Origin: a phage | Strand: one strand, 5' to 3' | DNA length: 40,032 nt | Sequence record: PZ490076.1 | Shown here: piece by piece, positions 1,814 through 36,286 of the stretch | Numbering within the stretch: the stretch's first letter is position 1 | How the letters are laid out: each line of letters starts with the position of its first letter | The notes under the pieces: model-generated | What the model was told of the DNA's origin: nothing | Database searches by the model: none | Seen by the model: the letters and a program-made list of their open reading frames with translations, nothing else | Translations under genes and position numbers: made by a program

Positions 1814-1976
1814 TCAGGCGACACTAGGATAGACCAGTAAGTAGGATGACCCTAAGTGAGCTTCTATTAAGGTGTTACCTAAAGTCCTTGACTACAATAG
1901 CTAAGGTCAGTAGAGTGAGTCTTTATCCACGTACTGACCTTAGGTCTTCCGCTCATGAATCGTTACCATGATTGCG

Positions 1977-2135
1977 TTAATTACACTGAGACACCAGAGA
2001 ACATACGAGAGTCTCGACCCACCCGACCCACTTACTTCCAGCAGTAACGCCAGCAGCAAGTAGAACAGCAGCAAGAAACCTGTATGTAGCTCGATTGGTC
2101 GCCAGAGCTTTAAGTACAGCTTTGGTCTTTGCCAT
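1977..2135 (-). CDS. Small hydrophobic protein, 52 aa, in the position of T7 gene 19.5
   Basis: Hand translation: MAKTKAVLKALATNRATYRFLAAVLLAAGVTAGSKWVGWVETLVCSLVSQCN; AGGAGG Shine-Dalgarno 11 nt upstream; not in the ORF track because it is under 60 aa. Confidence 0.35.
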   Translation of the reverse strand: MAKTKAVLKALATNRATYRFLAAVLLAAGVTAGSKWVGWVETLVCSLVSQCN

Positions 2136-2337: not shown

Positions 2338-2431
2338 CCAAACTCCTTATAAAACAGTAGGTTAGACTGGTAGTAACTATAGGTTACTAACTGCGTATTA
2401 ATTCAGTTTTCGCCTATAGTTATTCATTCAG

Positions 2432-13184: not shown

Positions 13185-15467
13185 TTACTCCTTACCGATT
13201 AAGGTGTTTGCGATACCCTCCAGTGAGACGTCATTATACATCCCACCGCGCTTCTCGATGTTGGCCTCTCGGTCAGCTCGACGTTTGTCACCAGCAGCTT
13301 TAGTCCCGACGATACGCGCTCGCTTGTTAGCGTCACGTTCTGCCTGAGCGTATGCGGCATCTTGTGCCTTCTGCTGTTGTTCGCGGTAGAGTTTACCTAC
13401 AAGTTCTTTATCGTAGCGAATACGAATAGTCCCCGTAGCGTCTTGGAGGAAGATAGAGCCGTTCTGTTCAACAACGGACAACTGAGAGTTCACTACCCAA
13501 GGGTTGGCCTTAATGAGCTGCTTACGAGCGGTGTCGATAATGTCTCGACCAACCTGCCACGACTCTGGGTTATCCCCGACCATAAGCTGGTGCTTGGACA
13601 CCATGCCGATTGACTTACCATCAGAACCTTCAGACTGGAACGTTACGGTGTTCTCATTCAGCCAGCGTTGAGTCTGCTGAGTTGCAGCGTCAGCGTTACC
13701 TGTACGATAGTACCATGAGTCCCAGACCTTACGAGCACTTGCGTCCAGAGACGTAGGAAGACGCGAAAGGTCCTTATTCCGAGAGTCGTTCTTCAACTCC
13801 TGCCACGCCTTGTCTGACTCAATGCGCATCTCACGGCTTTGACTTGCAGCTTGCTTATCAGCTTCAATCATCGTCTGAGGGTCCAGACCCATCTTGTCCA
13901 TCTGGTCGAACGTAGAGAACAACTGAGCTTGGTCAGGATACAGAGCAGCAAAACTTGAAGGGTCCTGAGTGTAAGCACGACGAAGAGACTCGAAGCGTTG
14001 CATCTTGTCTGGGTCGTACTGTCCACGGATGACCGCAGCCTGCCACTCACCAGCAGCGTCCTGAGTAAGAGTCTGGAAGGCATTACGGAACGGACCGTTG
14101 TTAGTGTCAGCCCTTAACAATGCAACCTTCTGGGCGTCCTTAGAAGCCTCAGGGATGTCCATCTGGTCAATCTGCTGTAGCTTAGCAGACGCATAGTTGT
14201 TCATGTCTGAACGCTTGAACTCTCCTGTAGCTTCAGAGACCGGAAGGTCCTCATAGCTGGTTGACACGTTGTCCCCAGCCAGACGTCGCTGATACACTTG
14301 GTCGATGACAAGTTGCTTGTTCTGGGTCTGGATTAACTTAGTGTTCTCCTTAGCCTGTTCAGCGGACTTACGCTTGACCGCTTCCAGCAAGCTGGCTTCG
14401 GCATTAATAAGCATCTGACGCTGAGGCGTTAGTTCTTCACCCGGCTGAAGCAGGTTGTTCTGCTCCTTGAGTTTCTGAATCTGGGCAAGGCCGATGGTGG
14501 GGTCGTCCTGAAGAATCGCAGACTGAACGCCTAACGCTAAGTCTTCCTGATACTTAGCCACCAGCTTGTACTCAGTTCCTTGTGCCTCGACAATAGCAGC
14601 GTTGAAGACATCAGGTCCTACAATCTCTTCGACTGTAGCATCCACGCCGTTAAGGGTGATTCGCTCGCCTCGTACTTGCTGTAGGAAGGTTGAGCCGCCT
14701 GACTTCTGGATTGCGTCACGGACCGTCTGGGTAATGACCTCCCGCGCTCGCTGGTCCGAGGGGATAGCAGCAGTAGTCAGTCCATCACGAAGGTAGGCCA
14801 TGAATGTCTTGCCAGACTCGGGTGAACGCATCAGGTCGCCATCGTTCAGGAATGAGTTCATCTCAATACGAGTGTTCAACATTGCTGTCTCTTCAGACTG
14901 CTTGCTGAAATACTTATTGAAAGACCCATAGATAGCGATGTTGCGGTCTGTGATGTTATCGTTGAACCCACGCTGGAAGAACTCGTCGGTAGGGTTGATA
15001 CCAGCCTCTTCAGCATAGGACTTAGCGGCGTCCTGAAGTCGCTGGTGGCGATACTCTTCCATGTCCTGACGTGTACGGAACTCACCGTTCTGAATCTTAA
15101 CGTTAATCTCGTCATCCACCGCAAAGGCAGCGTTACGACCTGTCTTGACTCGAAGTGCTTCCATAGCGTAAGGGTCGTCCTGATACAGCAGTGTACCGTT
15201 CTGGATAGCCTCACGTCTTTGCTGAGGTGTCAGCTTACGGATAATCTCGTTAGACCGCTCGTCGGCCCGTGTCTTCTCCTCGTCCTTGAACTGCTTGTAC
15301 AATCCAGTCCCGGACTCAACGAAGTTGGTTAACGCACGAGCCAGACCGGAGTCCCCAGTCGGAGCCTGAACGCTGGCTGCTTGATAGTTTACGGCGATAG
15401 CTTTACCCGGCGCTCTGCCACGACCCATAGTACGATTAGCCAGAGCTGATTCAATATTACTAGCCAT
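13185..15467 (-). CDS. Internal virion protein C (T7 gp15 homolog), 760 aa
   Basis: Similarity to T7 gp15 (ADERSNEIIRKLTPQQRREAIQNGTLLYQDDPYAMEALRVKTGRNAA). Confidence 0.9.
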   Translation of the reverse strand: MASNIESALANRTMGRGRAPGKAIAVNYQAASVQAPTGDSGLARALTNFVESGTGLYKQFKDEEKTRADERSNEIIRKLTPQQRREAIQNGTLLYQDDPYAMEALRVKTGRNAAFAVDDEINVKIQNGEFRTRQDMEEYRHQRLQDAAKSYAEEAGINPTDEFFQRGFNDNITDRNIAIYGSFNKYFSKQSEETAMLNTRIEMNSFLNDGDLMRSPESGKTFMAYLRDGLTTAAIPSDQRAREVITQTVRDAIQKSGGSTFLQQVRGERITLNGVDATVEEIVGPDVFNAAIVEAQGTEYKLVAKYQEDLALGVQSAILQDDPTIGLAQIQKLKEQNNLLQPGEELTPQRQMLINAEASLLEAVKRKSAEQAKENTKLIQTQNKQLVIDQVYQRRLAGDNVSTSYEDLPVSEATGEFKRSDMNNYASAKLQQIDQMDIPEASKDAQKVALLRADTNNGPFRNAFQTLTQDAAGEWQAAVIRGQYDPDKMQRFESLRRAYTQDPSSFAALYPDQAQLFSTFDQMDKMGLDPQTMIEADKQAASQSREMRIESDKAWQELKNDSRNKDLSRLPTSLDASARKVWDSWYYRTGNADAATQQTQRWLNENTVTFQSEGSDGKSIGMVSKHQLMVGDNPESWQVGRDIIDTARKQLIKANPWVVNSQLSVVEQNGSIFLQDATGTIRIRYDKELVGKLYREQQQKAQDAAYAQAERDANKRARIVGTKAAGDKRRADREANIEKRGGMYNDVSLEGIANTLIGKE

Positions 15468-15478
15468 TAGTCCTCCTC

Positions 15479-16066
15479 TTAGCTATGACCTGTAGGTGTG
15501 CCTTTAGAAGCACTAATTGGTGCAGCACCGCCAGAGCTGGACGCTCCAGAGATTGACTTACCAGCGGCGTAACCTTGCATCCCGGCGCTAGCAACATTAA
15601 GTGCATGGGCCAGTGGGCTGGTCTTGATGATTTTACCTTGACCACGGATAGCAGACTTGGTGTTCTCAATGTTGGCGATACGGTTCCCGAAGATAGCCGC
15701 ATAGTCGCGGTTGTAACTTTCGGTAATCCCTGCCCGCTCTTTGACGGTATCTCCTTCTACCTGACGTTCAATCCTGTCCATAGAGTTACCTTCCAGACCG
15801 GACTCAGCCACCGCAGCTCTGACCATACCCTGATTGCGGATACCGTTGAGCGTTGTCTCTGTCAGTTCAGCCATCTGCTGCTCCTTCAGGTCTCGCTCCT
15901 GCATCTTCAGGTTGGCGTCAGAGTAGTTCATCTGCTTAACCATTTCCTGAGCCTGTCGGTTCTGAGCGTCAATTGCTGCACCTTCGGCCTTGGCCTGCTG
16001 GGATGCGGACATAGTGGCCCCGGCTACAGACAGTACACCCATGCCTATGCTAATTGGCTCGCACAT
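15479..16066 (-). CDS. Internal virion protein B (T7 gp14 homolog), 195 aa
   Basis: Similarity to T7 gp14 (N-terminal MC..., LEGNSMDRIERQVEGD, NYRRDYAAIF). Confidence 0.8.
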   Translation of the reverse strand: MCEPISIGMGVLSVAGATMSASQQAKAEGAAIDAQNRQAQEMVKQMNYSDANLKMQERDLKEQQMAELTETTLNGIRNQGMVRAAVAESGLEGNSMDRIERQVEGDTVKERAGITESYNRDYAAIFGNRIANIENTKSAIRGQGKIIKTSPLAHALNVASAGMQGYAAGKSISGASSSGGAAPISASKGTPTGHS

Positions 16067-16521
16067 ACGTCCTCCTTAGAGATAGTGAATAGTTGAAAAC
16101 GCTCACCAGTTACCGGGCTGATAGTCCAATCATCATGGAACTTAGCCCCAAGCAACTTCAAGAATTTAATGTGAGACTTATTGCCTGACCACACGTAGTT
16201 CCAGATGGTCCCGTATTGGTCTAACATTAAGTCCCTGTACTCAGAGATACGCTTTATGAACTCTCGCTTCTCTTTAGGTCTCAGCTTATAGACCAGACCG
16301 GAAGTCAAGAACCATACGTTATCCCCTTGGTTCCCACCATAGGCAAACACTTCTCCTACACCGTTCGTTAAAACCACAGATGACGGAGATAGGTGCTTAA
16401 GCAGTCTTTCAGAGAGACCAACGGTTGACCCGTAGTTTGCTTTGCACTCATTAACATCATCTGCTGAAAGATGCCACAGAAAGTAGTGGACATCCGGTTC
16501 CGTAGCCTTGCGAATATACAT
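16045..16521 (-). CDS. Internal virion protein A candidate (T7 gp13 position), 158 aa
   Basis: Position between gp12 and gp14; AAGGAG RBS 7 nt upstream; sequence homology not verified from memory. Confidence 0.55.
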   Translation of the reverse strand: MYIRKATEPDVHYFLWHLSADDVNECKANYGSTVGLSERLLKHLSPSSVVLTNGVGEVFAYGGNQGDNVWFLTSGLVYKLRPKEKREFIKRISEYRDLMLDQYGTIWNYVWSGNKSHIKFLKLLGAKFHDDWTISPVTGERFQLFTISKEDVCASQLA

Positions 16522-16540
16522 AAAGTCTCCTTATAACCTT

Positions 16541-16590
16541 AAGGGCCTATAGTCCCTATAGTGATAGTTAAGGTAAATCTATAGGCCCTT
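16541..16590 (-). promoter_or_regulatory. Perfect 12-bp inverted repeat (AAGGGCCTATAG / CTATAGGCCCTT) enclosing the phi13-like promoter; candidate RNA hairpin / RNase III site (T7 R13 position)
   Basis: Plus strand 16541-16552 aagggcctatag and 16579-16590 ctataggccctt are exact reverse complements with a 26-nt loop. Confidence 0.4.
16551..16573 (-). promoter_or_regulatory. Phage RNAP promoter (phi13-like)
   Basis: Minus strand CCTTAACTATCACTATAGGGACTATAGG. Confidence 0.65.
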
Positions 16591-16597
16591 CAATAAG

Positions 16598-18955
16598 TTA
16601 GACTGAACGAGCTTTCTTAGCGTATGATGCCTCCCAGCCACACCCAACGATGGACACTGGGGTAGGATAGTCGGACTCTAAGGTTAGACTCGTGGTTAAT
16701 GCGTTACCATTCATAGCGAAGCGATACTGCCCGTCACCAATGTTTGTAGTACCGATGGTTTGCTGACCAATGGTGTACCCGTTGAAGGTATTCACGAACT
16801 CCCGCTCACCGTTTCTGACAATGAGTCTCAGAGCGCCAGTGTCTTTGTAGTTGACCCAAGCCCGACGAAGCTGTAGACGACCAGTGTCTTCAGACTGAGT
16901 GCCACTATCATCTTCAATCTTAATCAGGAACCGTGAGAACTTGTAGGACATCAGATAGGGCCGTCCGATGAACACTGTACGTCCTGACCAATCGCCGTTG
17001 AGGGTAATCACAGTAGAGATACTGGTCAAGTCCCCAAGGTCCACATAAGCACCCTGACTGTCAATCAGATAGTACCGACCGGGAGACGGAGCGTTGCCAC
17101 CATAAGCAGCACCAATGTCAACCGTAGTCTTATAGGTGTCAGCATTATATGAGCCAATTGGAATTACCATAGACACCTTGGAGTCAATGTGTAGTCTATA
17201 TGGCTCTGACGGGAAGTCAGTTGCCTCCTTGATGAACTTAAGGTGCTCAATGTCTACCCCTCCTTGATGCTGCCGAACGATGAACATGGTAGAGCCAATA
17301 GAAGCAGACGCCAGAATCTTATCAGCTTTAGGGAACTCCCAGTGCGACCAAGAGGCTTGAAGCTGTACGCCGTCCTTAAACAAGAACTTGTAGATGTAGA
17401 TACGGTTGTATGCACCTGTAGAGTTGACGCAGATGTAGTTCTCAGTCCCTGTACCTTGAATATCAAACACCCCGTTAGGGATGTAGGACAATACGTGACC
17501 GGTTGTATCATCAGCATCCTTCACATCAGACTCATCAGCTACAGCGAAGTATCGCTTAATGCTGGTGAATGACCCACGAGGAGCTGAGAAGAAGACTGAG
17601 CGTCCTACAGCGAACGGTCTGGCATTGTCGCCTAAGGCAAACTCTGAGCCTACATCAAGCTGGATAGACTTCGAGGTAAGGACCCCAGAGCTTGTCATCA
17701 CGAACTGAACCTCATCCGACCAAAGTAGTAGCTGCTCGCTAAACGGAACGGCATACTTAAGGATTGAGATTCGAGGGTGACTCACAGCTACATCAATAGG
17801 GTCAGCATCACTCAGTGTCGCCACACTCTTAGGGAAGAACGAAAAGTAGCTGGCTGAACGGCTCATGATTACGTTCTCACCCGACAAGAACCCAAGTCTG
17901 TTCCTGTAGAAGAACACATCATTAATCGCAGCATCCACGAAGCTAGGCATAGGGTTTGTGTCATCGTTACCAGAACCACGCTTGGACCAATCCAGAGTCT
18001 TGAACTCAAAGGAGCCGTCAGACTGTCTTACCAGAGCATGTGGCATTGTGGTGTTATCGAACCCAGTGACAACTCCCGGCTCCACTGTCTCCTTCCACGT
18101 CTTAGTGTTGGAGTCATACATCACGTAGTATTCATCGGCGCTACTGTTTGTTTCACCTTGAATCTTAATGATATACCCATTAGGAGCGGCAAGAGGTAGT
18201 TTAGAGATTGTCTGCACAGTGTCTAGGACTGGGCTTATTAGCTGGTTAGCGTAGCCATCCTCCGTCTCCACTGAGTTAATATCGGTCCCTGAAGGAGCTG
18301 TGATTAGCAGGAATCCAGACCCAAGGCCAAACGTGAAGGTAGGGTAGGCAGTAACAAGAAGGTCTCTCAGAGCTGCACCAATGGCTTGAGCGTCCACCTT
18401 AGGCGGGTCATTCTCGGCATCATTACCTGCTGGTAGCTTATGCGAGACCTTAACGCCACCGTTGATTCCCACCTTAAGGGTTCGACCATACTGTCCACCA
18501 CGCAGGTTAATTAAAGCTCGTGCTTTGCGGTTATAACCAGAGTGCGACTTCTCGCTTCCACCTTTGACGACAACCTTACGGTTAACGACGAACGTATAGT
18601 CTGCCACGGTAACGACACGGATGTCATCTCGTGGGTTGGAGGACTTAACGTAATCTACCGCACCTGACACTGAGTATTGATTACCACTCAAGTCAACTAC
18701 CTGAATGTTGGACCCATTGAACACGATGTAATACTGCTCATGCTCATCACGGTTAATCAGGTGGAACTTAGGGTTGCTCCCAACGTCGATGTTAAGACGT
18801 CGCTTGAAGACTGTAGGTGGACGCTTCTGGAGGCCATCACTCTCTGATGACCAGCAGTTAACCTGTGACTCGCCTTGGTCTGAGAACCTCAGTATGTCAG
18901 GCTGTTGGCTAATGCCACCCTTAAGGTTCTTGATTGATTGAGTAATTAGTGGCAT
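16598..18955 (-). CDS. Tail tubular protein B (T7 gp12 homolog), 785 aa
   Basis: N-terminus MPLITQSIKNLKGGISQQPDILRF matches T7 gp12 (MALISQSIKNLKGGISQQPDILRY). Confidence 0.95.
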   Translation of the reverse strand: MPLITQSIKNLKGGISQQPDILRFSDQGESQVNCWSSESDGLQKRPPTVFKRRLNIDVGSNPKFHLINRDEHEQYYIVFNGSNIQVVDLSGNQYSVSGAVDYVKSSNPRDDIRVVTVADYTFVVNRKVVVKGGSEKSHSGYNRKARALINLRGGQYGRTLKVGINGGVKVSHKLPAGNDAENDPPKVDAQAIGAALRDLLVTAYPTFTFGLGSGFLLITAPSGTDINSVETEDGYANQLISPVLDTVQTISKLPLAAPNGYIIKIQGETNSSADEYYVMYDSNTKTWKETVEPGVVTGFDNTTMPHALVRQSDGSFEFKTLDWSKRGSGNDDTNPMPSFVDAAINDVFFYRNRLGFLSGENVIMSRSASYFSFFPKSVATLSDADPIDVAVSHPRISILKYAVPFSEQLLLWSDEVQFVMTSSGVLTSKSIQLDVGSEFALGDNARPFAVGRSVFFSAPRGSFTSIKRYFAVADESDVKDADDTTGHVLSYIPNGVFDIQGTGTENYICVNSTGAYNRIYIYKFLFKDGVQLQASWSHWEFPKADKILASASIGSTMFIVRQHQGGVDIEHLKFIKEATDFPSEPYRLHIDSKVSMVIPIGSYNADTYKTTVDIGAAYGGNAPSPGRYYLIDSQGAYVDLGDLTSISTVITLNGDWSGRTVFIGRPYLMSYKFSRFLIKIEDDSGTQSEDTGRLQLRRAWVNYKDTGALRLIVRNGEREFVNTFNGYTIGQQTIGTTNIGDGQYRFAMNGNALTTSLTLESDYPTPVSIVGCGWEASYAKKARSV

Positions 18956-19521
18956 TAGTCTCTCCCAATGTCGGACATCATGTTGTAGCGACCAGTATCC
19001 ATCTCGTATTCCATGACCTGCTGATAGAGTTCTGCTTCCTGCTCACGAAGGTACAGTTCAGACTCTGGGCTACCGAAGAACTTAGCGTTGAACTCACGGC
19101 TAGCTTTAGTGACGATGTAGTCCCTGAAGACCACAGGCATCTCTGAGAATGGCTTCATCTCCACAAGCTCTACCGTGATAGGGTCGGTGAAAGTGGTCGA
19201 CTGAGTGGACAGGTCGTACAGGTATCCACCCATGTTGCTGTAGTAGCTGGTGGCCCCAGCGGTCATTACACGAAGGTATGACGGCAAGAATCGAATCCTA
19301 TTGTCTTGGACATCAGGTGTCAGGACAGCAGCTTCATTGATGTTAAAGTTCCAGCCTTTAGCTTGGATCTGACGATTGACACGATGCAGGATACGTTGGG
19401 CGTTCGAGACGTCAGCGTTCCCCTCGTCAAGCTGTAGGACTGCCGGTTCACCGATAGCAGCTAACATATCGTTGATAGCGTCTAAGTCATCGTTAGCATT
19501 CAGTGGAATGTATTGAGCCAT
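18955..19521 (-). CDS. Tail tubular protein A (T7 gp11 homolog), 188 aa from the corrected start
   Basis: Similarity to T7 gp11 (VNRQIQAKGWNFNI, YEMDTGRYNM); start placed at MAQYIPL with GGAGGGAG RBS rather than the upstream track start at 19551. Confidence 0.9.
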   Translation of the reverse strand: MAQYIPLNANDDLDAINDMLAAIGEPAVLQLDEGNADVSNAQRILHRVNRQIQAKGWNFNINEAAVLTPDVQDNRIRFLPSYLRVMTAGATSYYSNMGGYLYDLSTQSTTFTDPITVELVEMKPFSEMPVVFRDYIVTKASREFNAKFFGSPESELYLREQEAELYQQVMEYEMDTGRYNMMSDIGRD

Positions 19522-19637: not shown

Positions 19638-19677
19638 CAAAAAACCCCTCAAGCACCCGAAGGCACCCAAGGGGTTT
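19638..19677 (-). terminator. Tphi-like intrinsic terminator immediately after the capsid 10B stop
   Basis: Minus strand AACCCCTTGGGTGCCTTCGGGTGCTTGAGGGGTTTTTTG: GC-rich hairpin plus T6; closely resembles T7 Tphi (..CCCCTTGGGGCC...GGGTCTTGAGGGGTTTTTTG). Confidence 0.8.
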
Positions 19678-20957: not shown

Positions 20958-20980
20958 TCTCCCTATAGTGATAGTTTAGT
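20958..20980 (-). promoter_or_regulatory. Phage RNAP promoter (phi10-like) upstream of the capsid gene
   Basis: Minus strand GGACTAAACTATCACTATAGGGAGACC; best match to the family consensus, +1 GGGAGA as in T7 class III promoters. Confidence 0.8.
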
Positions 20981-24705: not shown

Positions 24706-24766
24706 CTTGAATCTCCTCTTTAAGTTAAGACTAAAATCTATCTTATAGTCATATCTTAGGTCCTAA

Positions 24767-24789
24767 AGTCCCTATAGTGATAGTTTAGT
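24767..24789 (-). promoter_or_regulatory. Phage RNAP promoter (phi6.5-like)
   Basis: Minus strand CACTAAACTATCACTATAGGGACTTTAGG. Confidence 0.7.
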
Positions 24790-24915: not shown

Positions 24916-25782
24916 TTACATGGATGGTGTCCACAGGATGACCTCCTTGGACTTAGGGTCATAGTCGGAGGCTCGACAAATACGAGCGACCTGAGCTTGG
25001 ACCAGAAGTTCCTCCTCGGTCATGCCAGCCTTAGCAGCCAGTGTAACCATGCAGTCCCACAGCGTCATGTCTTCACGCTTCGGATACTTCTTCCACTCAG
25101 TCTTAATCTGGCCTTTGTTCTTGCCAGTCTTAAGCTCACGGCTCTCCTGCACGAAGTAGTACGGCTCGTCAAGGAACACACGAGTGGTGTCCTCACCCAT
25201 TCCAGGAATACCACCGTAGCCATCTGTAGTATCACCCTTGATGGTCTGCTCCATGTGCCAGTAGTCTGCCTCAGCAGTCGTATGACTCAAGATTTCACCA
25301 GTGGTTAACCAGAAGAACTCACAGTTCGGTATGGTCTTGAAGTCCTTGTCACAGGACACCAGAACCGCATGGTCGCATCCGACAATCTGAGGTCTGGTCC
25401 CGATGATACCCATACAGTCATCACCCTCAAGCGTTGGACGCAGGAAGCTGTTGAACCGTGGGTCAGCCATCACTTCGGCTACGAACTTCTTGTAACCTAC
25501 AGGCTTGCGAGAACCCTTACGGTTAGCCTTATAGGTAGGCAAAACGTCCTTACGCCAGTTGTTATCATCAGTAAAGCACATCACAATCTTAGCGTCTTTC
25601 CACGCCTTGCGCTTCTTAACGATTTCAGCGATGGTGTTCTCAAGGATACGGCGAGCCTTCTCGTGGTCGCAGATAAGGGTCCAGATGTCATCGCCCCAGT
25701 CTGTCTCGTCCTCGGCAGCAGCCATAGAAGAGAAGACCAGATAGTCACCATCCAGCACCAGAGCTATTTTCTTCTCTGACAT
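24916..25782 (-). CDS. 5'-3' exonuclease (T7 gp6 homolog), 288 aa
   Basis: Similarity to T7 gp6 (CDKDFKTIPNC, QTIKGD.TDGY.GI, SGKNKGQ, TLWDC...AKAGMTEE). Confidence 0.9.
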   Translation of the reverse strand: MSEKKIALVLDGDYLVFSSMAAAEDETDWGDDIWTLICDHEKARRILENTIAEIVKKRKAWKDAKIVMCFTDDNNWRKDVLPTYKANRKGSRKPVGYKKFVAEVMADPRFNSFLRPTLEGDDCMGIIGTRPQIVGCDHAVLVSCDKDFKTIPNCEFFWLTTGEILSHTTAEADYWHMEQTIKGDTTDGYGGIPGMGEDTTRVFLDEPYYFVQESRELKTGKNKGQIKTEWKKYPKREDMTLWDCMVTLAAKAGMTEEELLVQAQVARICRASDYDPKSKEVILWTPSM

Positions 25783-31202: not shown

Positions 31203-31249
31203 TCACTCCTTAGTCAATAATGCGGACAAAGGGACAGGACTCATGGTCC

Positions 31250-31272
31250 CATCCCTAAGGTGATAGTTTAGG
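31250..31272 (-). promoter_or_regulatory. Variant phage RNAP promoter (CACCTTAGGG instead of CACTATAGG) upstream of gene 4
   Basis: Minus strand GCCTAAACTATCACCTTAGGGATGGG; upstream half matches the consensus, the -4/-3 positions deviate. Confidence 0.4.
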
Positions 31273-36215: not shown

Positions 36216-36244
36216 GGTGTAGCTCCTGATTGAATGAGTTAGGG

Positions 36245-36286
36245 TTAATCATGAAGGCCACGACTCTGAGTCATGACCTTGAGTCT
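36245..36286 (-). promoter_or_regulatory. Candidate RNase III processing site (copy C of the conserved element; T7 R1.1 position) between the promoter and gene 1.1
   Basis: Minus strand TAGACTCAAGGTCATGACTCAGAGTCGTGGCCTTCATGATTAA. Confidence 0.4.

What the first reader, a model, noticed from the sequence alone, without database searches (positions are those of the whole stretch)
16541..16590. Perfect 12-bp inverted repeat enclosing a late promoter between gp12 and gp13
AAGGGCCTATAG and CTATAGGCCCTT are exact reverse complements separated by 26 nt that contain the promoter core; the repeat arms themselves carry a second CTATAGG core motif. In read-through RNA this forms a 12-bp stem with a 26-nt loop, a possible processing site (T7 has R13 here) or a structure modulating promoter use.
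Basis: seen in the sequence. Interest (0 to 1): 0.4.

Follow-up and report, generated by a model that had tools for sequence, protein, structure and literature searches.

The report
R13-type RNA hairpin wrapping promoter phi13
The inverted repeat is real and is most likely the K1F-group version of the RNase III processing hairpin "R13" that T7 and T3 carry around their gene-13 promoter, so it is an unannotated variant of a known element, not a new kind of element.

Summary
The window is a Kayfunavirus (K1F-like) genome, 100% identical to phage BUCT788 over the 2.4-kb region queried, with genes on the minus strand.

**Observation.** It is exact. The arms are 16579-16590 and 16541-16552, 12/12 complementary, with a 26-nt spacer. 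They sit in the 76-nt gap between gene 12 (tail tubular B) and gene 13. The spacer holds positions -22 to +4 of the K1F-type promoter phi13 (+1 = 16556).

**Chance.** About 0.1 such repeat is expected per shuffled genome. Phi13 is the only one of the 11 phage promoters enclosed by a hairpin (21 spanning pairs, z = -4.8).

**Known counterparts.** The T3 and phiYeO3-12 records annotate an "RNase III site R13" stem-loop over phi13 at this junction. T7 also has R13, a weak site.

**Comparison.**
- In T7-, T3-, K11-type and CR8 lineages the 5' arm pairs with the promoter core (-7 to +7). Six of 14 pairs show compensatory changes.
- In Kayfunavirus the 5' arm pairs with a copy of the core placed at +5 to +16.
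- Only the central 9 bp are invariant. The perfect 12 bp occur in 6 of 18 variants.

**Mechanism (inferred).** Only read-through RNA can fold the hairpin. Host RNase III cleavage is plausible but untested.

Verdict: new member, a slight architectural variant, of a known kind. Interest is low to moderate.

The parts
16579..16590 (-). 5' arm of the hairpin (RNA sense AAGGGCCUAUAG), promoter positions -34..-23. It begins 8 nt after the gene 12 stop codon.
   Evidence: The inner 9 nt are invariant in 18 Kayfunavirus-type variants.
16541..16552 (-). 3' arm (CUAUAGGCCCUU), positions +5..+16 of the phi13 transcript. It repeats the promoter core ACTATAGG directly downstream of it.
   Evidence: All 12 columns are invariant in alignment A2.
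16551..16573 (-). Phage-RNAP promoter phi13, -17..+6, with inferred start G at 16556. Most of it forms the 26-nt loop (16553-16578).
   Evidence: 16/16 match to the genome's promoter consensus. The same position is annotated as phi13 in EcoDS1 and as a K1F-consensus promoter in ASO2B. The +1 is assigned by analogy with T7-type promoters.
16593..16604 (-). Predicted 5' strand of the lower helices: AGUCU 16604-16600 and CUUAU 16597-16593, or alternatively UAACU 16600-16596. It includes the gene 12 stop codon UAA (16600-16598).
   Evidence: MFE fold. The RNAalifold consensus picks UAACU/GGUUA. There are no compensatory changes, so this remains a prediction.
16524..16538 (-). Predicted 3' strand of the lower helices: GGUUA 16538-16534, AUAAG 16534-16530 and AGACU 16528-16524. 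It overlaps the gene 13 Shine-Dalgarno AAGGAG (16532-16527).
   Evidence: The predicted probability that the SD is paired is 0.72 in the window and 0.29-0.86 across all 18 variants.
16598..18955 (-). Gene 12 (tail tubular protein B), the upstream cistron whose mRNA would end in the hairpin.
16045..16521 (-). Gene 13 (internal virion protein A), first cistron downstream of phi13 and the hairpin.
19646..19663 (-). T-phi-like terminator between gene 10 and gene 11. Transcripts reaching the hairpin must read through it, because there is no phage promoter between 20963 (phi10) and 16556 (phi13).
   Evidence: The position matches the terminator annotated in EcoDS1.

Best explanation
This is the Kayfunavirus counterpart of the T7/T3 'R13' element, an RNA hairpin built around the gene-13 promoter. 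RNA made from upstream late promoters (phi6.5, phi9, phi10) that reads through the T-phi-like terminator and genes 11-12 contains both arms. It folds into a 12-bp upper stem with a 26-nt loop, which is the promoter sequence itself. One or two short imperfect lower helices involve the gene 12 stop codon and the gene 13 ribosome-binding site, giving about 17-22 stacked base pairs. Host RNase III most likely cuts this structure near the base of the upper stem. That would separate a gene 11-12 mRNA ending in a protective 3' hairpin from a gene 13-onward mRNA whose 5' end lies close to that of phi13-initiated RNA. RNA started at phi13 (+1 = 16556) begins inside the loop, lacks the 5' arm, is unstructured and escapes processing. 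Shown here: the repeat, the predicted fold, its uniqueness among the genome's 11 promoters, its conservation, and its positional equivalence to annotated R13 sites. Inferred: cleavage by RNase III and its consequences.
For: (1) Same locus as known sites: T3 'stem_loop, RNase III recognition site R13' 25443-25480 overlaps promoter phi13 25457-25479; phiYeO3-12 has the same arrangement; T7 R13 is listed as a weak RNase III site. (2) T7 and T3 fold the same way around phi13. (3) Representatives from the 79 Studiervirinae loci almost all show a hairpin whose 5' arm lies between the gene 12 stop and phi13. In T7-, T3-, K11-type, CR8 and L085 lineages the arm matches promoter -7..+7 in 12-14 of 14 positions (P <= 0.008 by shuffling). 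Six of 14 pairs change on both sides, a level reached by 0/500 shuffles. (4) In the window phi13 is the only one of 11 promoters enclosed by a helix: 21 spanning pairs and z = -4.8, with 14 pairs at z = -1.6 for the next best and 0-5 pairs for the other nine. (5) The junction is present once in each of 221 phage records, with 203 at 90% identity or more. The arms stay constant although the promoter specificity region inside the loop differs in some lineages (L019, L025, L027). (6) Helix maintenance by different pairs: Ro103C3lw loses a basal G-C but gains GUCUC/GGGAC at the top (my pairing), and the L021-type forms 13 + 5 bp. (7) The length meets the 11-bp minimum between cleavage site and loop, and internal loops giving 3' hairpins are typical of T7 sites (PMC1540722). 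(8) The phi13-initiated RNA is unstructured (z = +0.98).
Against: No cleavage data exist for any Kayfunavirus. The curated EcoDS1 and K1F records annotate no RNase III sites, and no paper in the library links Kayfunavirus with RNase III. Within the Kayfunavirus-type set there are zero compensatory pairs; the core is simply invariant, which would equally fit a DNA-level constraint. The outer three pairs are broken in 12 of 18 variants. Twelve base pairs is short for E. coli RNase III, and the lower helices are only predictions with two competing registers. If cleavage were at the stem base, the presumptive proximal-box position 2 would be a G-C pair, which inhibits binding in the model substrate. 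The T7 homologue is itself a weak site. No Rfam family matches the region.
Confidence: 0.6

Rival explanations
1. The hairpin is a functional RNA structure that is not cleaved. It acts as a 3'-protective or RNase III-binding-only element. Alternatively it is a translational gate: in read-through RNA the lower helices sequester the gene 13 Shine-Dalgarno, so gene 13 is translated mainly from phi13-initiated RNA.
For: The MFE fold pairs AUAAG and AGACU, which overlap AAGGAG, with the 3' end of gene 12. The predicted probability that the SD is paired is 0.29-0.86 across 18 variants, whereas the phi13-initiated leader is open. RNase III can bind without cutting at some motifs (PMC1540722). T7 R13 is only weakly cut.
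Against: The lower-helix partners differ between variants and show no compensatory change. A 10-nt insertion in several lineages moves the SD away from the hairpin. A ribosome terminating at the gene 12 UAA, 8 nt before the 5' arm, would open the lower helices anyway (inference).
Confidence: 0.17
2. The repeat has no function of its own. It is a by-product of promoter-core sequence: CTATAG is self-complementary, and the core ACTATAGG is duplicated in tandem at +4..+11. It persists through linkage with an essential promoter.
For: Both arms contain the palindromic CTATAG. The 3' arm is a direct repeat of the promoter core. The phi6.5 initial transcribed sequence GGGACTTTAGGACCTAAG resembles that of phi13. 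There is no within-clade covariation.
Against: The GC-rich extension GGCC/GGCC is not promoter-derived, yet it is invariant across phages whose gp13 is only 63-66% identical. None of the other 10 promoters has such flanks. A promoter-embracing hairpin recurs in every sampled lineage with different sequences and compensatory changes.
Confidence: 0.1
3. The element acts at the DNA level. It could be a cruciform or a protein-binding palindrome that tunes phi13 activity. It could also be a hairpin in single-stranded replication intermediates; such palindromes, including T7 RNase III sites, can trigger the Lamassu/DdmABC defence.
For: The single-stranded DNA fold gives -11.7 kcal/mol with z = -3.2. 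PMC11707656 shows that T7 RNase III-site palindromes are sensed as DNA hairpins by DdmABC. The invariant arms are compatible with a DNA constraint.
Against: In sister lineages G-U wobble pairs are frequent in the stem (GU is the commonest pair at two positions). These pair in RNA on the sense strand only and would be A-C mismatches on the other DNA strand, which points to an RNA-level structure. I know of no site-specific DNA-binding regulator in T7-like phages. The 26-nt spacer disfavours cruciform extrusion (general knowledge).
Confidence: 0.06
4. It is a terminator or pause hairpin for the phage RNA polymerase that stops read-through transcription ahead of phi13.
For: A stable hairpin lies at the end of gene 12.
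Against: No U-tract follows the stem (AAGGUUAUAAGG), and the terminator scan finds nothing there. The real T-phi-like terminator is at 19646-19663.
Confidence: 0.03

Closest known systems
RNase III site R13 of T3 and phiYeO3-12 (annotated stem-loops) and of T7
   Same: It lies in the gene 12/gene 13 intergenic region. The 5' arm lies between the gene 12 stop and promoter phi13, and the promoter sits inside the hairpin. The hairpin can therefore form only in read-through RNA.
   Different: In T7 and T3 the 3' arm is the promoter core itself (-8..+7) and the loop is 8-18 nt. Here the 5' arm matches the core poorly (9/14, P = 0.58). Instead it pairs with a separate copy of the core plus GCCCTT at +5..+16, so the whole promoter through +4 becomes a 26-nt loop. 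Cleavage is documented for T7 only.
Canonical T7 RNase III substrates such as R1.1
   Same: The predicted architecture has an upper stem, an asymmetric internal loop and a lower stem totalling about two helical turns. There are UA steps near the top of the stem and A-U pairs at the base of the upper stem.
   Different: The loop is large (26 nt) rather than a tetraloop. The top of the stem has UA/UA rather than the canonical UA/UG distal box. A G-C pair sits at the presumptive proximal-box position 2. The lower helix is not supported by covariation.
Promoter-flanking hairpins at the same junction in Dickeya phage Ninurta and in the Shigella phage A7 / Berlin-like group
   Same: Both arms lie outside the promoter: ACCCUAUG/CAUAGGGU in Ninurta and a short CCCC/GGGG in the A7-like group. 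In Ninurta the 3' arm again resembles the promoter core.
   Different: The stems are shorter (8 bp, 4-5 bp), the sequences are unrelated, and these are different genera. None is characterised.
Phage palindromes sensed by Lamassu/DdmABC (PMC11707656)
   Same: These are T7-type RNase III-site palindromes able to form hairpins in single-stranded DNA.
   Different: That work concerns a host defence trigger in Vibrio cholerae. Nothing here tests it.

Membership tests
T7-group RNase III processing site R13 | Located in the intergenic region between gene 12 (tail tubular B) and gene 13 (internal virion protein A) | tested here: met
   compared with T3, phiYeO3-12 and T7.
T7-group RNase III processing site R13 | The hairpin overlaps promoter phi13, with the 5' arm upstream of the promoter, so only read-through RNA can fold it | tested here: met
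   The 5' arm is at -34..-23 and +1 lies inside the loop. The phi13-initiated RNA is unstructured.
T7-group RNase III processing site R13 | The 3' arm is the promoter core/initial transcribed sequence (-8..+7), as in the annotated T3 stem-loop | tested here: not met
   Only 9/14 pairs with its own core (P = 0.58), against 12-14/14 in T7-, T3-, K11-type, CR8 and L085 lineages. The partner is +5..+16 instead.
T7-group RNase III processing site R13 | The helix is maintained in evolution by compensatory change | tested here: inconclusive
   Family level: 6/14 pairs are compensatory, reached by 0/500 shuffles. Within Kayfunavirus: 0 compensatory pairs and a 9-bp invariant core. Lineage-specific re-registering of the helix does occur.
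E. coli RNase III substrate | A double helix of at least 11 bp between cleavage site and loop, typically about two turns, often with an internal loop that limits cleavage to one strand | tested here: inconclusive
   A 12-bp perfect stem plus predicted 5 + 5 bp lower helices across internal loops. The criteria come from PMC1540722. The lower helices are unverified.
E. coli RNase III substrate | Favourable distal and proximal box sequences and absence of antideterminant pairs | tested here: inconclusive
   UA/UA steps at the stem top and A-U pairs at the base fit. A G-C pair at presumptive proximal-box position 2 does not fit (one search rules applied by eye), and that pair is a mismatch in 12/18 relatives. 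The cleavage site is unknown, so box positions are guesses.
E. coli RNase III substrate | Cleavage by RNase III in vitro, or rnc-dependent ends in vivo | not testable with these tools
   No transcript-end data are available. No paper in the library links Kayfunavirus with RNase III.
T7-type single-subunit RNAP promoter (K1F specificity) | A 23-bp match to the genome's own promoter consensus, in the correct orientation upstream of a gene | tested here: met
   TAACTATCACTATAGG matches 16/16. There are 11 such sites, all on the minus strand, against 0.2 expected. The site is annotated as phi13 in EcoDS1 and as a K1F-consensus promoter in ASO2B.
Intrinsic / class I phage terminator | A G+C-rich hairpin followed immediately by a U-run | tested here: not met
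   No U-run follows the stem, and the scan reports nothing at 16520-16600.
Rfam RNA families | A match to any curated covariance model | tested here: not met
   The only hit in 15000-18000 is a chance-level snoRNA match elsewhere (E = 6.9).

The most novel reading that the evidence does not exclude
Across Studiervirinae the gene-13 promoter is kept inside an RNA hairpin whose 5' arm must co-evolve either with the promoter core or, in Kayfunavirus, Ninurta-like and Berlin-like phages, with a decoy copy of the core placed just downstream. On this reading the element is more than a weak RNase III site. It would be a conserved discriminator between read-through and promoter-initiated RNA, gating gene 13-16 translation or stability through the lower helix that covers the ribosome-binding site. 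The relocated 3' arm would free the promoter to change specificity without breaking the hairpin.
Probability: 0.15. Interest if true: 0.45.

Novelty: new member of a known kind. Interest (0 to 1): 0.25.

Why it matters
If confirmed, it extends the T7 paradigm of RNase III sites coupled to late promoters to the K1F group, which includes phages used for therapy and engineering. It would supply a missing annotation for more than 200 sequenced genomes. It also matters for refactoring: editing or swapping phi13 in these phages would break or alter an RNA structure at the gene 12/13 boundary. The two-architecture comparison, promoter core as 3' arm versus a downstream copy, is a small but clean example of an RNA structure constrained by an overlapping DNA signal. 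It does not open a new question.

Tried and rejected
- **Rfam scan** of 15000-18000 at permissive threshold: nothing relevant.
- **T7 GenBank and RefSeq records:** they list phi13 but carry no R13 feature. The 13a and phiA1122 records also lack it. I could not verify the R13 cleavage coordinate I recall from Dunn and Studier 1983 (27281), so nothing rests on it.
- **Papers not held:** the K1F genome paper and the T7 refactoring paper. Literature searches for K1F or Kayfunavirus plus RNase III found nothing specific.
- **Pattern scan** of viral contigs for GGCCTATAG-N15-40-CTATAGGCC: it returned the same Kayfunavirus junctions plus five unrelated hits, such as a collagen-like repeat and other palindromes. 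This gave no extra diversity.
- **Within-clade covariation** on 18 variants: uninformative, because the core is invariant.
- **Second overlapping promoter** in the 3' arm: rejected, because only -6..-1 match the consensus.
- **Terminator reading:** rejected, because there is no U-tract.
- **5'-terminal hairpin** on the phi13 transcript: rejected, with z = +0.98.

Full report
**Identity of the window**

A 2.4-kb query around the finding is 100% identical to Escherichia phage BUCT788 and 96-98% identical to many Kayfunavirus (K1F-like) phages. All genes and all phage promoters lie on the minus strand. The finding is therefore described below in minus-strand (RNA-sense) orientation.

**Checking the observation**

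- The repeat finder reports arms 16541-16552 and 16579-16590, 12 nt, 100% complementary, 26 nt apart.
- In RNA sense the junction reads: gene 12 stop UAA (16600-16598), CUUAUUG, 5' arm AAGGGCCUAUAG (16590-16579), 26-nt spacer, 3' arm CUAUAGGCCCUU (16552-16541), AAGGUUAUAAGGAGACUUU, then the gene 13 AUG (16521).
- Gene 12 is tail tubular protein B and gene 13 is internal virion protein A.
- The spacer carries the K1F-type promoter. TAACTATCACTATAGG matches 16/16, one of 11 such sites, all on the minus strand, against 0.2 expected by chance.
- EcoDS1 annotates the same position as phi13, and ASO2B annotates it as a promoter similar to the K1F consensus.
- With +1 at 16556, the 5' arm is -34..-23, the loop is -22..+4 and the 3' arm is +5..+16.
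- Perfect inverted repeats of at least 12 bp with a loop of at most 60 nt occur twice in the window. Dinucleotide-shuffled genomes give 0.095 on average.

**Structure**

- Read-through RNA across the junction folds at -28.6 kcal/mol (z = -3.4). No shuffle out of 200 does as well.
- The fold has three parts: the 12-bp stem, an asymmetric internal loop, and two 5-bp lower helices.
- The lower helices are CUUAU/AUAAG and AGUCU/AGACU. They involve the gene 12 stop codon and the gene 13 Shine-Dalgarno.
- A competing lower helix, UAACU/GGUUA, is chosen when the sequence is truncated and by RNAalifold.
- The RNA that starts at phi13 lacks the 5' arm and is unstructured (z = +0.98).
- I folded -50..+41 around each of the 11 promoters. 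Only phi13 is strongly enclosed, with 21 pairs joining the region upstream of -24 to the region from -8 onward (z = -4.8). The next best promoter has 14 such pairs (z = -1.6), and the other nine have 0-5.

**What is known at this locus**

- The T3 RefSeq record annotates "stem_loop 25443..25480, RNase III recognition site R13", overlapping "promoter phi13 25457..25479". phiYeO3-12 has the equivalent pair of features.
- T7 papers list R13 among the ten RNase III sites, describe it as weak, and note that pairing a cleavage site with a promoter is common in T7.
- In T3 the hairpin is GUCUCCCUGCGGUGA / UCACUAAAGGGAGAC. In T7 it is UUCUCCCUGUGGUGG / CCACUAUAGGGAGAA.
- In both phages the 5' arm lies just after gene 12, and the 3' arm is the promoter core plus the first transcribed bases.

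**Comparative evidence**

I fetched 24 close relatives and then 79 Studiervirinae loci through gp13.

*Lineages where the 5' arm pairs with the promoter core*
- This applies to T7-, T3-, K11-type, Citrobacter phage CR8 and L085 lineages.
- The sequence between the gene 12 stop and phi13 is complementary to promoter -7..+7 in 12-14 of 14 positions (P <= 0.008 against shuffled arms).
- On an arm-to-arm alignment, 6 of 14 pairs show changes on both sides. This is reached by 0 of 500 shuffles, and slid registers give 0-2. One caveat: the registers were chosen as the best match for each sequence.
- G-U is the commonest pair at two positions. This favours an RNA-level structure over a DNA-level one.

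*Lineages where the partner lies downstream of +1*
- In the window, the 5' arm matches its own promoter core in only 9/14 positions (P = 0.58) but matches +5..+16 in 12/12.
- Dickeya phage Ninurta has ACCCUAUG/CAUAGGGU. L056 and the Shigella A7/Berlin-like group also use downstream partners.
- A promoter-embracing hairpin is thus a family-wide feature with two architectures. Kayfunavirus has the one in which both arms flank the promoter.
- The 5' arm's CCUAUAG can still pair with the core CUAUAGG. This explains why the "core motif" appears in the arms.
- The 3' arm is not a second promoter, because only -6..-1 match the consensus.

**Conservation within the K1F group**

- The 83-nt junction occurs in 221 phage records, almost always once per genome (223 places in all). 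Of these, 109 are at least 99% identical and 203 are at least 90% identical.
- None of the 30 sampled records annotates a stem-loop there. The curated EcoDS1 record annotates phi13 but no RNase III sites.
- In 18 distinct variants the inner 9 bp (GGCCUAUAG/CUAUAGGCC) are invariant. One variant has an A-U to G-U change. The three outer pairs are intact in only 6 of 18. No pair shows a compensatory change.
- Within-clade data are therefore neutral on whether the structure is selected.
- Two observations nevertheless argue for selection on the helix:
  - The arms stay constant while the specificity region of the promoter in the loop has been replaced in some lineages (L019, L025, L027).
  - The helix is re-registered rather than lost in divergent members. 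Ro103C3lw loses a basal G-C but gains GUCUC/GGGAC at the top, again giving 12 bp (my pairing). The L021-type variants form 13 + 5 bp.

**Mechanism**

- There is no phage promoter between phi10 (+1 at 20963) and phi13. A T-phi-like terminator lies at 19646-19663. As in T7, RNA reaching the junction is therefore terminator read-through.
- That RNA can fold the hairpin. RNA started at phi13 cannot.
[quoted passage not shown] Natural substrates span about two turns, short helices can stack coaxially, and internal loops restrict cutting to one strand, leaving protective 3' hairpins.
- The element meets the length minimum and has the upper-stem / internal-loop / lower-stem layout. The lower helices are only predictions.
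- The sequence boxes are ambiguous. A-U pairs at the stem base and UA steps at the top fit the rules. A G-C pair at presumptive proximal-box position 2 does not, and that pair is a mismatch in 12 of 18 relatives.
- I put the positional and evolutionary equivalence to R13 at about 0.8, and actual RNase III cleavage at about 0.5-0.6.

**Rivals**

- A non-cleaved structural or translational role through SD occlusion is possible but lacks covariation.
- A functionless by-product of promoter-core duplication is hard to reconcile with the invariant GGCC extension, the uniqueness among 11 promoters and the family-wide recurrence.
- A DNA-level role is disfavoured by the G-U pairs in sister lineages. 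Such palindromes can, however, be sensed by Lamassu/DdmABC.
- A terminator is excluded, because no U-tract follows the stem.

**Verdict**

- The element is best filed as an unannotated Kayfunavirus member of the R13 class, with a shifted 3' arm.
- It is not categorically new. Interest is 0.25.

Noticed in passing
window 1901-1912 / 1932-1943: The only other perfect 12-bp inverted repeat in the genome (CTAAGGTCAGTA / TACTGACCTTAG, 19-nt loop). It lies about 35 nt downstream of the small ORF 1977..2135(-), which sits at the gene 19.5 position near the right genome end. It could be a 3' stabilising hairpin or another processing site.
   Followed up: partly
window 2374-2383 / 2413-2422: A 10-bp inverted repeat, TAACTATAGG / CCTATAGTTA (29-nt loop), lies between the gene 19 stop (2432) and promoter phiOR (+1 at 2320). 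Like the phi13 arms it carries the CTATAGG core motif, but it lies wholly upstream of the promoter.
   Followed up: no
window ~36230-36260 (minus strand), just downstream of promoter +1 36291: A strong 12-bp hairpin, AAGGUCAUGACUC...GAGUCGUGGCCUU (fold z = -3.2), lies in the early region. It is a candidate counterpart of the T7 R1.1-type RNase III sites and is present in both read-through and promoter-initiated RNA.
   Followed up: no
window ~31228-31255 (minus strand), transcript of promoter +1 31255: The transcript begins with an 11-bp hairpin (GGGAUGGGACC...GGUCCUGUCCC). It is reminiscent of the 5'-terminal stem-loops on some T7 late mRNAs.
   Followed up: no
window 24755-24772 versus 16539-16556 (minus strand): The initial transcribed sequences of phi6.5 (GGGACTTTAGGACCTAAG) and phi13 (GGGACTATAGGCCCTTAAG) are similar out to about +18. 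This suggests a shared promoter-cassette origin for the 3' arm.
   Followed up: no
window 18909-18918 / 18949-18958: A 10-bp perfect inverted repeat (CTAATGCCAC / GTGGCATTAG, 30-nt loop) sits at the gene 11 stop / gene 12 start overlap (18955).
   Followed up: no
L019, L025, L027 (about 1430-1470); L141, L142: Some close relatives carry a different promoter specificity region (for example ACTATTACACCCTCACTATAGGGA or ATATTTAACACTCACTATAGGGA) inside arms that are otherwise the same. This implies RNAP/promoter specificity switches within the group while the flanking hairpin arms were kept.
   Followed up: partly
L001 (T7) 135-200: In T7 the 5' arm UCUCCC-U-GUGGU can pair with the promoter core (15 bp) or, alternatively, with ACUACGGGAGG downstream of +1 (6 + 5 bp by my pairing). 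L081 has a 12-bp version of the downstream option. T7-like phages may therefore already hold both architectures as alternative conformers.
   Followed up: partly
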